Of a stretch of 32,000 nucleotides of DNA, positions 25,205-28,582 are shown one piece after another. A program made the translations under genes and the position numbers. Source of the DNA: Promethearchaeota archaeon. GTDB taxonomy: Archaea; Asgardarchaeota; Lokiarchaeia; Sigyniarchaeales; SOKP01. The notes beneath the pieces are model-generated. The model had not been told where the DNA came from. It did not search any database and was given only the letters and a program-made list of their open reading frames with translations. The stretch spans positions 90,001 to 122,000 of the forward strand of contig JAUWGH010000003.1 of assembly GCA_030606485.1 (NCBI GenBank), given 5' to 3'. Position 1 is the stretch's first letter; the number at the start of each line of letters is the position of its first letter.

Positions 25205-28200
25205 CTATCCTCCAGTTAATCCTTCAATACTTAATATTGAAGTAAAATACGTAAGCGAGAAAAATACAATTAAAATGATCATAAAAATTATGCATAGAAT
25301 TATTAAAAGAGTTGCTAAAGTAATTTTTACTCCATCTCTTTGTTTAATTCTAGCCTCAGACATTAGTGAGATGGAATAACCTATAGATTGAACGGTTATT
25401 GTAAAGAATAAGATTTCCAATGCAACTATTAATCCCAATACCAATATCGCTTCACTTATTAATTTAAATAGATTATAGATTACTTCATTAATTCCCTCAA
25501 TACTCTGAAATAAATCATGGATAAAGAAACCAATACCCCACATAATAGTAAACCAAATGAAAATTGATCCTACTCCTAAGATCAATAATTGCCAGGCTAA
25601 GCTAACTGATATCGTATTTTTTAGTTGTTTTCGATAGTTTGGAAATTGTGGATCGCAATTAGAGCATATATAATTACAAATTCTTGCAAAAAGTCTAATA
25701 AATGCATAGTAAGCAATAAAAGTAAAAATTAAAATGAATGGAATCAGAATTAATTCTGCGAGTGGCATAAATTTCAAAAAGAAATCATACTGCTCTTCAT
25801 AATAAAGCAAATGAGAATTAATTTTACTAGCAATGTATAGAAGACATAAAAGAATTAAAACAGTAAAAGTTCCACTTATAATTAGATTTAAAACTCTGAG
25901 ATTAGATTTTTGTTCTCTGAAGAAAATTCTTTTTTGGACAGCTTTTGGAGCCATGAAAACATCCTCAAGAAAATTTGCTAAAGAGTATTTATTAGACTTC
26001 AAAGCCTTATCTTTTATTATCGAAATATTTTGTAATTCAAATAGCTCCGGTTGTTCATCACCTCTTTCAAGTCTTTTTCGAATAGAAATTTTTGCATCTA
26101 AAATTAAAAGAGTACTAATTCCAAGAAATGAAAAAATTAATATTATTATAATATAAACCTGAACTGATTCAGCTATTGAACCAGGGGAATTATATGCACG
26201 AGTGGCATCTGCTTGAACCATATCAAAATATGGTGAAATAATAGCGGATTTAAACCCACTGGCCATTCTATTTAATTGTCCTTTATTATTTATTAATAGG
26301 GTATTTGATGACTCAGTACTAATGGTATAATCATGACCATCATTACCCCATCCAGGATATCCTGGATTTATTACTAACCAGGCGCCATAAGCCCATAACT
26401 CAAATGAGTTTTCATCATAATGGGGATGACTTTGTGTATAATTTTTACATGAAAATGATAAAAAAATAGAATCAGTTGAATAACCCGAACGCAAGAAAGC
26501 CATATTAGAATCTTTATAAACATCACTTGCATACTCTGGTTTTACTGGTTCAATTTTCTCATTAACATCATAACAAACTATACTTCGAAAATTTGGTAAA
26601 GAGCTTAATAAATAATTATATTTTTTTAATCCCAATAAGTCAGTATTGTTTTTTCTATGTTCCCAAAACCATTGATATTCTTTAGCGCGTTGTTGATTAG
26701 AAATTTGAGCTGCTGAAATCAATAAAATTTCATTAGCATATCCTGAGGTAGTTGCATCTTCAAATAGAGGAGTTGTTGCAAGCGGGCTTAGACAATGGGC
26801 CATAAAATCCAAGCTATTTAGAAATCTCGAATTATTAAAGAAATTATATGCATTTAATCTATTTAGAGCATGCAAAAACTCAATTGAGTTAAGATAAGCA
26901 AATGCGAGATAACTTTGACCTTCATAGGATGCACCATCCGGTCGATTTTTCTCATATAAATATGTTAGAATGGCTTCAGTTGCTATATCAATAAATGTTT
27001 TATTTTTTAAGACAAGACCCGCTAATCCCAAACCACCTGCATTAACAACACAATGATTATTTTCTGGGTATAAATCTATATTAGATAAAGGTTGAGCATG
27101 GCTTTTTAAAAGATCTTTAATTAGAACTCTCTCAGGTGCAGAGATATTTTTATAGATAATATCATAAGCTATTGCATATGCTTGAACAGCATATGATCGG
27201 CTGAGATCCATTGAATAATCGTTTTCTATGTTACCCATATCTAATAAAATCTCTTTTATCTTTTCTAAGTAATTTTGACCGCCCTGGATTGCAAACTTTA
27301 AAGATATTTTTCTTATAGGATCAACTCTTTGATTTTCATCCCATGTATTTATATCAGTATTAACTAGTATATCTACATCGGATACATATGAAAAATATGA
27401 ATAATTCCAAGGGTCTTTAGAATTATGGATTTTATCTTTTAGATTATCTAATTCTGTTGCATTAAATAAAAGATAGGGATGATCTAAATGTTCTAATTCA
27501 ATTATTTTCGAAGAATTAAATTGCCATATCGTGTCATCTGGGAAAGAATCATAACTTTCTGAGATTTGTAGAGGATTTTTTTCTATATATTCTACATCCT
27601 CGCTTAATATATCTTTACTTATTATGAAGGAACAACTATCTTTAAGGTCAAATTTTATTAATGAACTTTCTGATTCAAATGGAGTATTAACACCATTAAC
27701 TATCAAGCTTGATACCTCAAAAGGGACATAAATTGAAATTTTTTCCGGTTCTATTAATTCCTCTTCAATTAACGAGCGGTGAAGATCAATATTGATAATA
27801 CCTGTAATTTCATTTGGGCAATTCCCATAATTGATTAAAAGATTGACAACTGGTTCAGAGCTTTCAAAATACTTTTTATTCTCAAATGACAATTTCGAAG
27901 AATCTTGGACAAAAAAATAATTAATTTTATCAAGTTCATTTTTATGAATGAAAAATATTTTAGCATCCGATTCAATATCATTAGGAACGGAAAAAGTTTT
28001 TGTAATTCTTTGAACTTGATAGTATATCAAATCCGATACACCGATTTGGCCAATAGTATTAATATCTACGGAAGAGATGAAGGGAACAGAAGTAGATGAA
28101 TCTGATTCATTATTAGGATATAAAACAGTTCCCATTTGTGGATTAGTCATACCCGAATATTTGGCTTTAATATATATTTGGTTCTTATCTACTCCTTCAT

Positions 28201-28582
28201 AATTTTGAGTCGGAAAAAATTCTCCTTCATGATCTGTGAGTTTCTGAATAGGACTTAAAAATGAAACATTTAATGAGATTATATCATTTGAACTATAACT
28301 TTTAGTGGAATAACTCAGAGTTTGAAAATCTTCGCTAACAGTAAGATTACCTCTCCCGTGTAAAACCCAATCGATGTCAAATTGTTGAGTTTTGGGCATA
28401 AGTTCATCAACAATTATGAAATACCCACTATTATTCTCCTCTTCATTTGGGTGTATAAAAATTATATAGCGCGTAAAACCCCCGTGTTCTGGGAATAGAA
28501 TAAAAGCTGTAGCCAATAAAAATGAATTTAATAGTATCAAAATGCCGATAAAAACCAAAATAACTGTTTGCTTTTTAGACAT
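25205..28582 (-). CDS. Membrane-anchored heparinase II/III-like polysaccharide lyase with a C-terminal multi-pass membrane domain
   Basis: N-terminal TM; HPYLLF, NNH, DGASYEGQSY, SHPHYDENSF, SNTLLINNKGQ, DATRAY motifs; about 6 hydrophobic helices in the last ~320 aa. Confidence 0.8.
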   Translation of the reverse strand: MSKKQTVILVFIGILILLNSFLLATAFILFPEHGGFTRYIIFIHPNEEENNSGYFIIVDELMPKTQQFDIDWVLHGRGNLTVSEDFQTLSYSTKSYSSNDIISLNVSFLSPIQKLTDHEGEFFPTQNYEGVDKNQIYIKAKYSGMTNPQMGTVLYPNNESDSSTSVPFISSVDINTIGQIGVSDLIYYQVQRITKTFSVPNDIESDAKIFFIHKNELDKINYFFVQDSSKLSFENKKYFESSEPVVNLLINYGNCPNEITGIINIDLHRSLIEEELIEPEKISIYVPFEVSSLIVNGVNTPFESESSLIKFDLKDSCSFIISKDILSEDVEYIEKNPLQISESYDSFPDDTIWQFNSSKIIELEHLDHPYLLFNATELDNLKDKIHNSKDPWNYSYFSYVSDVDILVNTDINTWDENQRVDPIRKISLKFAIQGGQNYLEKIKEILLDMGNIENDYSMDLSRSYAVQAYAIAYDIIYKNISAPERVLIKDLLKSHAQPLSNIDLYPENNHCVVNAGGLGLAGLVLKNKTFIDIATEAILTYLYEKNRPDGASYEGQSYLAFAYLNSIEFLHALNRLNAYNFFNNSRFLNSLDFMAHCLSPLATTPLFEDATTSGYANEILLISAAQISNQQRAKEYQWFWEHRKNNTDLLGLKKYNYLLSSLPNFRSIVCYDVNEKIEPVKPEYASDVYKDSNMAFLRSGYSTDSIFLSFSCKNYTQSHPHYDENSFELWAYGAWLVINPGYPGWGNDGHDYTISTESSNTLLINNKGQLNRMASGFKSAIISPYFDMVQADATRAYNSPGSIAESVQVYIIIILIFSFLGISTLLILDAKISIRKRLERGDEQPELFELQNISIIKDKALKSNKYSLANFLEDVFMAPKAVQKRIFFREQKSNLRVLNLIISGTFTVLILLCLLYIASKINSHLLYYEEQYDFFLKFMPLAELILIPFILIFTFIAYYAFIRLFARICNYICSNCDPQFPNYRKQLKNTISVSLAWQLLILGVGSIFIWFTIMWGIGFFIHDLFQSIEGINEVIYNLFKLISEAILVLGLIVALEILFFTITVQSIGYSISLMSEARIKQRDGVKITLATLLIILCIIFMIILIVFFSLTYFTSILSIEGLTGG

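What the first reader, a model, noticed from the sequence alone, without database searches (positions are those of the whole stretch)
25205..28582. Heparinase II/III-like lyase appears circularly permuted and anchored at both ends
Seen: the motif FTRYIIF...YFIIVDEL...IDWVLH sits at aa 36-75 (28358-28477), directly after the N-terminal TM. The alpha/alpha toroid (HPYLLF ~27470, NNH 27053-27061) and the central beta domain (HPHYDENSF, SNTLLINNKGQ, DATRAY 26192-26209) follow, then more TM helices. From recall, canonical family members have DAT.AY followed almost immediately by F.R.I.F...YFVI.D.L...WLLH. Inference: the chain was cut at that junction, so both membrane anchors emerge from one spot on the folded enzyme. 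It would be the second permuted enzyme in 32 kb.
Basis: partly seen in the sequence, partly recalled or inferred. Interest (0 to 1): 0.7.

Follow-up and report, generated by a model that had tools for sequence, protein, structure and literature searches.

The report
Circularly permuted, membrane-looped polysaccharide lyase
An Asgard-archaeal gene encodes a heparinase/alginate-lyase-type enzyme whose chain order has been rotated, so that its two new ends lie side by side and each runs into a membrane helix; this appears to be an undescribed way of mounting this enzyme fold on a cell surface.

Summary
The observation and the interpretation both hold. The ORF at 25205-28582 (-) encodes 1125 aa in this order: TM1, the β-rich half that is C-terminal in all reference lyases (aa 34-316), a 48-aa linker, the (α/α) toroid plus the first half of the β domain (aa 365-801), then TM2 and five more TM helices.

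Against the nearest canonical relative (P0047, bacterial, 726 aa), aa 365-801 match residues 27-465 and aa 34-316 match residues 464-713. The two matches abut exactly. The in-silico rejoined chain aligns colinearly (E 2e-86).

AlphaFold models (pLDDT about 90) give the same answer against PL39 Dp0100 (6JP4/6JPN): the core matches residues 5-498 (Z 22.9) and the N-segment matches 457-770 (Z 22.8).

Among 148 library hits, every permuted protein whose source gives an organism is labelled Asgard, with one labelled Bathyarchaeota. About 90 others are canonical. On a tree the permuted proteins form one group, so one event suffices.

The catalytic residues (NNH, Tyr558, Asp609, His719/His721) are invariant. 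The tethers to the membrane are short and fixed in length.

The protein is probably an outward-facing uronate-glycan lyase held as a loop between TM1 and TM2. The substrate is unknown. This is a new variant of a known fold. I found no description of it in the papers searched.

The parts
25205..28582 (-). Whole gene, 1125 aa (P0001): TM1, permuted lyase domain, TM2-TM7
   Evidence: ORF list and translation. 40 full-length homologues at 100% coverage.
28493..28567 (-). TM1 (aa ~6-30), preceded by MSKK. N-terminal signal-anchor, or less likely a cleaved signal peptide.
   Evidence: Hydropathy 2.69. The uncharged run has a median of 27 aa in the permuted family against 19 aa in canonical relatives. 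F30, P31 and G35 are nearly invariant.
27635..28483 (-). N-segment (aa 34-316): the β-rich part that is C-terminal in canonical lyases. It holds YFIIVDEL and WVLHGRG.
   Evidence: BLASTP to P0047 464-713, E 1e-21. Profile to 6JPH 514-766, E 3.2e-9. Model to 6JP4 457-770, Z 22.8.
27491..27634 (-). 48-aa linker (aa 317-364) joining the old C-terminus to the old N-terminus. Weakly conserved apart from an ExNPL motif.
   Evidence: It lies between the two HSPs. Mean majority-residue frequency is 0.36. It is modelled mostly as coil.
26180..27490 (-). Core (aa 365-801): (α/α) toroid plus the first half of the β domain, ending in DATRAY
   Evidence: BLASTP to P0047 27-465, E 7e-59. Profile to 6JP4 19-458, E 4e-21. 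Model residues 314-776 to 6JPN 5-498, Z 22.9, rmsd 2.9. Pfam PF07940 at 52 bits.
27053..27061 (-). N508-N509-H510: carboxylate-neutralising Asn and catalytic His (equivalent to Atu3025 His311)
   Evidence: Alignment to 3A0O. Invariant in 41 sequences.
26909..26911 (-). Tyr558: catalytic Tyr (equivalent to Atu3025 Tyr365)
   Evidence: Alignment to 3A0O. Invariant.
26756..26758 (-). Asp609: equivalent of Dp0100 Asp288 in the His-Asp-His-metal tetrad
   Evidence: Alignment to 6JP4. The tetrad is described in PMC12915356. Invariant.
26411..26428 (-). H719-P-H721-Y-D723-E724: equivalent to Atu3025 His531 and Dp0100 His405/His407
   Evidence: Alignments. Invariant.
26099..26167 (-). TM2 (aa ~806-828), 8 residues after the last β strand and followed by a K/R-rich cytoplasmic stretch
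   Evidence: Hydropathy 2.76. The tether is 8-13 aa in the 21 sequences that could be measured.
25892..26098 (-). Cytoplasmic loop (aa ~829-897), basic and poorly conserved
   Evidence: Sequence. Conservation 0.28.
25247..25891 (-). TM3-TM7 (aa ~898-1112): polytopic membrane module with no known family
   Evidence: Hydropathy. No Pfam or NCBIfam hit. Its profile hits the TM regions of other permuted subfamilies (3.7e-14 and 1.7e-13).

Best explanation
The gene encodes an outward-facing, membrane-integrated enzyme of the heparinase II/III-like superfamily, which includes PL15, PL17, PL39 and PL40. Its catalytic domain is a natural circular permutant. An ancestral secreted enzyme ran signal peptide, toroid, β domain. 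It was re-ordered so that the chain now starts at the 'GGFxRxIxF' strand in the middle of the β domain. It runs to the old C-terminus, crosses a ~48-aa linker to the old N-terminus, passes through the toroid, and ends at the 'DATxAY' strand. Those two strands are neighbours in the canonical chain, separated by only a few residues. The new termini must therefore lie next to each other. Each passes after a short tether of fixed length (7 aa and 8-13 aa) into a TM helix. The whole ~775-aa enzyme is thus a loop between TM1 and TM2 of a 7-TM protein and is held close to the outer face of the cytoplasmic membrane. The His/Tyr β-elimination machinery and the His-Asp-His metal site are intact. The protein most likely cleaves a uronic-acid-containing glycan at the cell surface. 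I cannot tell whether that glycan is environmental or the cell's own. What is shown: the permutation, its exact breakpoint, its single origin, its restriction to archaeal metagenome genomes (Asgard wherever a source gives a name, with one labelled Bathyarchaeota), conserved catalytic residues and conserved TM helices on both sides. What is inferred: that TM1 is not cleaved, the outside topology (positive-inside rule), that the termini are adjacent in 3D, lyase chemistry, and that the permutation is what allows the two-point mounting. My sub-confidences are: permutation 0.95, anchoring at both ends 0.75, lyase chemistry 0.6.
For: Permutation by sequence: phmmer to 6JPH gives aa 459-762 to 134-452 and aa 53-305 to 515-751. 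The N-segment profile matches 6JPH 514-766 at E 3.2e-9. The core profile matches 6JP4 19-458 at E 4e-21. BLASTP to canonical P0047 gives swapped HSPs that abut at 464/465, and the rejoined chain is colinear at E 2e-86. Permutation by structure: the soluble-domain model has pLDDT 90.3 and pTM 0.89. Its residues 314-776 match 6JPN 5-498 with Z 22.9. The N-segment model matches 6JP4 457-770 with Z 22.8. Foldseek, which keeps sequence order, aligns only ~450-470 of 777 residues. Distribution: of 148 library hits, every protein with the N-segment before the core carries TM1, and most carry a C-terminal TM array. Those whose source gives an organism are labelled Asgard, except one labelled Bathyarchaeota. 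About 90 others are canonical. Tree: the permuted proteins form one side of a branch (SH-aLRT 98), which needs one change. Both segments have the same best canonical relative, P0047 (5e-45 and 3e-93). Catalytic residues H510, Y558, D609, H719 and H721 are invariant. Anchors: hydropathy and fixed tether lengths. Short forms keep only TM1, the enzyme, TM2 and a basic tail. The TM module is homologous across subfamilies. The DNA order is confirmed in independent assemblies.
Against: No coordinates were available, so I inferred rather than measured the adjacency of the termini and the packing of the N-segment against the core. The inference rests on pTM 0.89 and on the canonical chain's continuity. 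TM1 contains an A-T-A motif (aa 24-26) that could be a signal-peptidase site. The gene neighbourhood is not conserved and names no substrate. The family is patchy: 8 of 301 genomes sampled in the phylum. Human dermatan-sulfate epimerase 1 shares the fold (6HZN, Z 19.0) and, from memory, a His/Tyr/His set of catalytic residues, so sequence alone cannot separate lyase from epimerase.
Confidence: 0.7

Rival explanations
1. The permutation is real, but TM1 is a cleaved Sec signal peptide. The mature enzyme would be tethered only through TM2-TM7, so there is no two-point mounting.
For: A24-T25-A26 fits the -3/-1 rule, and Ala26 is the majority residue in the family consensus. Canonical relatives carry classical signal peptides at the same position.
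Against: The uncharged run has a median of 27 aa, against 19 aa in canonical relatives, and it runs straight into the first β strand. The spacing P31 to R38 is invariant at 7 aa. F30, P31 and G35 are nearly invariant, and an Asn inside the helix (N19) is present in 76% of sequences. A permutation that puts the new N-terminus beside TM2 would have no obvious benefit if TM1 were removed.
Confidence: 0.2
2. The domain is a uronate C5-epimerase (like DS-epimerase 1 or heparosan epimerases) that modifies the archaeon's own surface or exopolysaccharide, rather than a lyase.
For: 6HZN (human DS-epi1) matches the core at Z 19.0 with 423 residues aligned and E 1.5e-10. Pfam's DSE-like_N/DUF4962 gives a weak hit. 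One homologue sits next to an MBOAT and two UDP-Glc/GDP-Man dehydrogenase genes, i.e. uronate-glycan biosynthesis (L003).
Against: The closest relatives by sequence and fold are characterised lyases (PL39, PL15, PL35, PL17). The nearest canonical relatives are secreted bacterial enzymes, one of them with a dockerin. The biosynthetic neighbourhood occurs in one locus only.
Confidence: 0.15
3. The domain is a catalytically dead glycan-binding or sensor ectodomain attached to a membrane module.
For: The polytopic C-terminal module has no known family, and the gene has no fixed partners.
Against: All catalytic and metal-site residues are invariant across 41 sequences down to 26% identity. The cytoplasmic loop is the least conserved part (0.28) and holds no signalling domain.
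Confidence: 0.05
4. This is not a permutation of one gene. The original C-terminal β part was lost, and an unrelated β-sandwich from another lyase was fused to the N-terminus.
For: Domain shuffling is common in carbohydrate-active enzymes.
Against: Both segments have the same best canonical relative, P0047, and the two HSPs abut to the residue at 464/465. The breakpoint lies inside a β domain, not at a domain border. The concatenated tree is coherent.
Confidence: 0.03

Closest known systems
PL39 alginate lyase Dp0100 catalytic domain (Defluviitalea phaphyphila; PDB 6JP4/6JPH/6JPN)
   Same: It is the best solved match for both pieces: core Z 22.9 and N-segment Z 22.8. It has the toroid plus β-domain fold. 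The Asn-His, Tyr and His405-Asp288-His407-metal tetrad are conserved as N509/H510, Y558 and H719/D609/H721.
   Different: Dp0100 has the canonical chain order and is a soluble, secreted, multimodular enzyme. Identity is only ~20-24%. On the tree Dp0100's cluster (P0125/P0126) lies in a different clade from the permuted group. The substrate of the archaeal enzyme is unknown.
Canonical relative P0047 (726 aa, unnamed metagenome protein on a 58.8% GC contig next to a BamB-like gene) and P0059 (dockerin-bearing)
   Same: These are the nearest relatives by sequence: 31% and 25% identity over the two segments, and the same motifs, including GGFxR, YxIxD and IDWVLHGRG.
   Different: They have the canonical order, a classical cleavable signal peptide and no TM array. 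They look bacterial.
PL15 oligo-alginate lyase Atu3025 (PDB 3A0O/3AFL), exo-heparinase 6LJA, and PL17, PL35 and PL40 lyases
   Same: They share the superfamily fold. The catalytic residues His311, Tyr365 and His531 map to H510, Y558 and H719. Z is 16-21.
   Different: They have the canonical order and are soluble. Atu3025 has an extra N-terminal β domain. Arg314 is not conserved in this protein (V513), although the family consensus has Arg one position after the His.
Human dermatan-sulfate epimerase 1 (PDB 6HZN)
   Same: It has the same fold (Z 19.0) and, from memory, a related catalytic triad.
   Different: It is an epimerase with the canonical order. From memory, its membrane anchoring is C-terminal only.
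Known natural circular permutants among carbohydrate-active enzymes, e.g. GH70 glucansucrases versus GH13 (from memory, not tested here)
   Same: A rotated chain order with the fold and catalytic residues kept.
   Different: Those cases permute a (β/α)8 barrel in soluble enzymes. Here the cut lies in the β domain of a two-part lyase fold, and both new ends are fused to TM helices.

Membership tests
Heparinase II/III-like superfamily (Pfam PF07940 Hepar_II_III_C; toroid + β-sheet lyase fold) | Pfam model match above the gathering score | tested here: met
   52.1 bits against a cut-off of 24, but only profile positions 13-99 of 237. The canonical relative P0047 also matches only positions 9-98, so the partial match is a trait of the subfamily and not evidence of permutation.
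Heparinase II/III-like superfamily (Pfam PF07940 Hepar_II_III_C; toroid + β-sheet lyase fold) | (α/α) toroid followed by an antiparallel β domain, with matches to solved members | tested here: met
   Z 15-23 to PL39, PL35, PL17, PL15, PL12, PL33 and heparinase II for the core. Z 22.8 to PL39 and Z 10-13 to PL40, PL8 and exoHep for the N-segment.
Heparinase II/III-like superfamily (Pfam PF07940 Hepar_II_III_C; toroid + β-sheet lyase fold) | Canonical N-to-C order: toroid, β domain first half, β domain second half | tested here: not met
   The order is rotated. This is the point of the finding. Homology is not in doubt.
Heparinase II/III-like superfamily (Pfam PF07940 Hepar_II_III_C; toroid + β-sheet lyase fold) | Catalytic Asn/His, Tyr, and His (plus His/Asp metal site) | tested here: met
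   N508/N509/H510, Y558, D609, H719 and H721 align to the catalytic residues of Atu3025 and Dp0100 and are invariant.
Heparinase II/III-like superfamily (Pfam PF07940 Hepar_II_III_C; toroid + β-sheet lyase fold) | β-eliminative cleavage of a uronate glycan | not testable with these tools
   This needs an enzyme assay.
CAZy family PL39 | Sequence membership with Dp0100-type enzymes | tested here: inconclusive
   It is the best PDB hit, but identity is ~20-24%. On the tree Dp0100's cluster is in another clade, and the permuted group sits with P0047/P0059 and P0080/P0133/P0174. No CAZy classifier was available.
Natural circular permutant (general definition) | Two segments, each homologous to one reference protein, in swapped order, that together cover it once and abut at the breakpoint | tested here: met
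   P0001 365-801 to P0047 27-465, and P0001 34-316 to P0047 464-713. The rejoined chain aligns in one piece of 739 columns at E 2e-86.
Natural circular permutant (general definition) | The same 3D fold is kept, and the new termini are adjacent | tested here: inconclusive
   Each piece superimposes on the matching part of 6JP4, and the whole model has pTM 0.89. I could not read coordinates to measure the packing of the pieces or the distance between the termini.

The most novel reading that the evidence does not exclude
The permutation is an adaptation that turned a secreted bacterial lyase into an integral part of an archaeal 7-TM machine. The enzyme would be held rigidly on a TM1/TM2 hairpin with its cleft at a fixed height and orientation over the membrane. 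The TM3-7 module would take part in handling a membrane-proximal uronate polymer, for example by trimming or releasing a nascent or lipid-linked surface glycan as AlgL does in alginate export. That would make it a new kind of membrane-embedded glycan-processing device in the archaea closest to eukaryotes.
Probability: 0.15. Interest if true: 0.8.

Novelty: new variant of a known kind. Interest (0 to 1): 0.58.

Why it matters
Four reasons.

1. I found no description of a natural circular permutant of the toroid + β-sheet polysaccharide-lyase or epimerase fold in the papers searched. The breakpoint is mapped to the residue, and a close canonical relative is at hand. This gives protein-evolution and CAZy researchers a clean natural pair for comparison, and it shows a site that tolerates new termini, which is useful for engineering.

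2. It suggests a design rule. A large enzyme whose native ends are far apart (a 48-aa linker is needed to join them) can become a loop domain of a polytopic membrane protein if it is first permuted at a β turn.

3. Annotation pipelines label these proteins 'heparinase II/III family' or 'membrane protein of unknown function'. Domain models cover only part of them, so the family is under-described.

4. It points to uronate-glycan chemistry at the surface of some Lokiarchaeia-type Asgard archaea from cold seeps and marine sediments. Little is known about their envelopes and extracellular enzymes.

Tried and rejected
- **Pfam on the N-segment alone (aa 28-340) and on the TM region.** No hit. NCBIfam also gave no hit. 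The truncated PF07940 match (positions 13-99) looked at first like evidence of permutation. The canonical P0047 shows the same truncation, so I dropped that argument.
- **ESM Atlas feature search on the TM region.** No usable hit.
- **Search for stand-alone homologues of the TM module among shorter proteins.** Only contig-end fragments of the same gene turned up. A pre-existing host membrane protein is therefore neither shown nor excluded.
- **Gene neighbourhood as a guide to the substrate.** It is not conserved. The divergent GH172/DUF2961 neighbour is adjacent only within the same genus.
- **Canonical ~680-aa PF07940 genes in other genera of the same archaeal family.** They do not hit my core or N-segment profiles at E 1e-3, so they are not the source of the permuted clade.
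- **RNA evidence.** No RNA holder is listed. One run labelled RNA-Seq, but probably DNA, gave three small low-depth contigs inside the core. I do not use this as evidence either way.
- **Literature.** No held paper pairs circular permutation with these lyases, or heparinase with Asgard archaea. The original PL39 paper (PMC6885643) is not held.
- **Steps not taken.** I could not read model coordinates, so I measured neither the distance between the termini nor the position of the breakpoint relative to the active site. I did not run complex prediction on the two halves, because a pass would only reflect likeness to solved structures.
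Full report
**The object.** The window is 30% GC. It carries an F420-dependent methylene-H4MPT dehydrogenase (Mtd), a Ras-family GTPase and other genes typical of an Asgard archaeon. The homologues of the gene in question are labelled Helarchaeota, Hodarchaeota, Lokiarchaeota or Promethearchaeota. The finding is one ORF, 25205..28582 on the minus strand, 1125 aa (P0001). Hydropathy gives one N-terminal TM helix (aa ~6-30) and six C-terminal ones (aa ~806-828, 898-920, 940-965, 995-1020, 1040-1065, 1088-1112). 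That leaves a ~775-aa soluble domain between TM1 and TM2. MSKK precedes TM1 and a K/R-rich stretch follows TM2, so by the positive-inside rule the large domain faces outward. This topology is an inference.

**Sequence evidence for permutation.** Pfam finds Hepar_II_III_C above threshold, but only profile positions 13-99 of 237, at aa 693-779. phmmer against PDB sequences gives two swapped pieces against the PL39 alginate lyase Dp0100 (6JPH). Aa 459-762 match residues 134-452, and aa 53-305 match residues 515-751.

I collected 40 full-length homologues. All are ~1100 aa, cover the query fully and have the same order. From them I built profiles of the N-segment (A2) and the core (A4). In the whole PDB, the N-segment profile hits only residues 514-766 of the 772-residue Dp0100 domain (E 3.2e-9). 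The core profile hits residues 19-458 of the same chain (E 4e-21), followed by PL15, PL35, exo-heparinase, DS-epimerase 1, PL17 and PL33.

The sharpest test used P0047. This is a 726-aa canonical-order relative found by the exhaustive library search. By BLASTP, P0001 365-801 matches P0047 27-465 (31% identity, 7e-59). P0001 34-316 matches P0047 464-713 (25%, 1e-21). The two matches abut to the residue. When aa 346-805 and 29-345 are rejoined in silico, the alignment becomes one colinear block of 739 columns (E 2e-86). The same holds for three other canonical proteins. In P0047 the junction reads ...SKLYADGGFNRNVLF.... In P0001 the C-terminal side ends ...DATRAYNSPGS, then TM2. The N-terminal side begins TM1, then FPEHGGFTRYIIF.

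**Structural evidence.** AlphaFold2 with the family alignment gives a confident model of the whole soluble domain (777 aa, pLDDT 90.3, pTM 0.89) and of the N-segment alone (pLDDT 88.9). With VIA-align, residues 314-776 of the whole model match 6JPN residues 5-498 (Z 22.9, rmsd 2.9 Å, 432 aligned). The N-segment model matches 6JP4 residues 457-770 of 770 (Z 22.8, rmsd 2.7 Å, 265 aligned). Weaker matches go to the C-terminal β parts of PL40, PL8 and exoHep. Foldseek keeps sequence order, and it aligns only ~450-470 of the 777 residues to any reference. I could not read coordinates. The adjacency of the new termini and the packing of the two pieces are therefore inferred from pTM and from chain continuity in canonical relatives.

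**Is the order normal in the family?** It is not. The N-segment profile was searched against 1.84 billion representatives and gave 148 hits. I located core and N-segment in each hit. About 90 have the core first, which is the canonical order. In every hit with the N-segment first, that segment follows an N-terminal TM helix, and in most of them a C-terminal TM array follows the core. Where a source names the organism, it is an Asgard lineage, plus one labelled Bathyarchaeota.

Beside the ~1100-aa family there are further permuted subfamilies of ~990-1035 aa. There are also short forms of 730-780 aa that keep only TM1, the enzyme, TM2 and a basic tail (P0062, P0063, P0065, and an ORF in G049). 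I built a maximum-likelihood tree of 24 permuted and 23 canonical proteins, with the domain parts concatenated in canonical order. It puts all permuted proteins on one side of a branch (SH-aLRT 98), so one change of order suffices. P0047 and the dockerin-bearing P0059 are the nearest canonical relatives. This was a quick search with several long branches, so the exact sister is uncertain.

P0047 lies on a 58.8% GC contig beside a BamB-like gene. Other near relatives come from Verrucomicrobiota or from bacterial sugar-utilisation loci. Acquisition from bacteria followed by permutation is the simplest history, but it is an inference.

**Not an artefact.** Near-identical DNA is held by cold-seep and marine-sediment metagenomes from at least ten studies. 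Contigs from three independent studies run through TM region, core, linker and N-segment without indels.

**Anchors.** The uncharged N-terminal run has a median of 27 aa in the permuted proteins. In canonical relatives it is 19 aa and ends in AxA-type sites. It passes into the first β strand through a stretch of invariant length: P31 to R38 is 7 residues in all 41 sequences. The last strand is followed after 8-13 residues by TM2. F30, P31 and G35 are nearly invariant. The TM3-7 module has no known family and is weakly conserved. Even so, its profile matches the TM regions of other permuted subfamilies end to end (3.7e-14 and 1.7e-13), so it is probably ancestral to the clade. The short forms lack TM3-7, which shows that the constant element is the TM1/TM2 pair. 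A-T-A at aa 24-26 leaves open that TM1 is cleaved. I put that at about 0.2.

**Function.** The catalytic His311, Tyr365 and His531 of Atu3025 align with H510, Y558 and H719. The His405-Asp288-His407-Mn tetrad of Dp0100 (PMC12915356) aligns with H719, D609 and H721. The Asn before the His is present. All of these are invariant in 41 sequences that diverge to 26% identity. The N-segment contributes invariant D59, H75 and R77, which are motifs shared with canonical enzymes. A working β-elimination site is therefore likely.

An epimerase cannot be excluded from sequence, because DS-epi1 shares the fold at Z 19.0. The substrate is unknown. Neighbourhoods differ between loci. One locus has an MBOAT, two nucleotide-sugar dehydrogenases and a GH172. 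In this window a GH172/DUF2961 protein with a C-terminal TM is the divergent neighbour, but that adjacency holds only within the genus. The family is patchy: the N-segment profile is found in 8 of 301 sampled genomes of the phylum, in one family and a neighbouring one. That points to an accessory function.

**Why permuted?** A 48-aa linker is needed to join the old termini. The new termini, by contrast, are sequence neighbours in the canonical chain. Permutation at that turn is what allows the enzyme to be carried as a loop between two adjacent TM helices with very short tethers. This reading is a plausible rationale and has not been demonstrated.

**Comparison and novelty.** The protein belongs by homology to the heparinase II/III-like superfamily. 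Its closest solved relative is PL39 Dp0100, at ~20-24% identity and in a different clade. It fails only the canonical-order criterion. I found no paper that describes a circular permutant of these lyases or this Asgard family. Databases label the proteins generically. I rate it a new variant of a known kind. The permutation is well supported and is linked to an unusual two-point membrane mounting, with moderate rather than field-changing interest.

Noticed in passing
window 28709-29902 (+): The divergent neighbour is a DUF2961/GH172 protein (Pfam E 4.6e-79) with a C-terminal TM helix, so it is probably also displayed on the surface. It is adjacent to the permuted lyase only in genomes of the same genus. 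It lies 4.5 kb away in one distant homologue's locus (L003).
   Followed up: partly
window 2462-3547 (+): The 361-aa PorB-like subunit matches Pfam TPP_enzyme_C only with profile positions 70-150, and at its own N-terminus (aa 18-111). I did not test it further.
   Followed up: partly
window 30016-31998 (+), runs off the window: A large protein with caspase (C14) and legumain-like (C13) peptidase matches and a bacterial TSP3 repeat lies next to the two surface glycan enzymes.
   Followed up: no
window 5048-5587 (+) and 4392-4952 (+): A Ras/Roc-family small GTPase (E 4.7e-43) lies downstream of a HEAT-repeat protein, which is typical Asgard content. Two PIG-L (GlcNAc-PI de-N-acetylase family) genes sit at 6640-7317 (+) and 7337-8011 (-).
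   Followed up: no
G180:C82:48566-49390 and 52109-52948 (-): One related genome carries two tandem copies of a permuted paralogue (ORFs of 1059-1068 aa). Tandem duplication is the raw material of the classical duplication-and-truncation route to permutation, and it occurs in this family.
   Followed up: no
L008-L012, L017-L019 (G261, G192, G008, G037, G279, G178, G207): Other genera of the same archaeal family carry canonical-order PF07940 genes of ~680 aa (profile positions 2-227). These do not hit the core or N-segment profiles at E 1e-3, so a separate heparinase II/III lineage exists in Asgard archaea. A third type (~830 aa, N-terminal TM; L013-L015) matches only part of the core profile.
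   Followed up: partly
L003:5320-7858 and 12867-15796: Around a 44%-identical homologue lie an MBOAT with a following 335-aa protein, and two UDP-glucose/GDP-mannose dehydrogenase genes. This set resembles alginate-type biosynthesis and O-acetylation loci. It was seen in one locus only.
   Followed up: no
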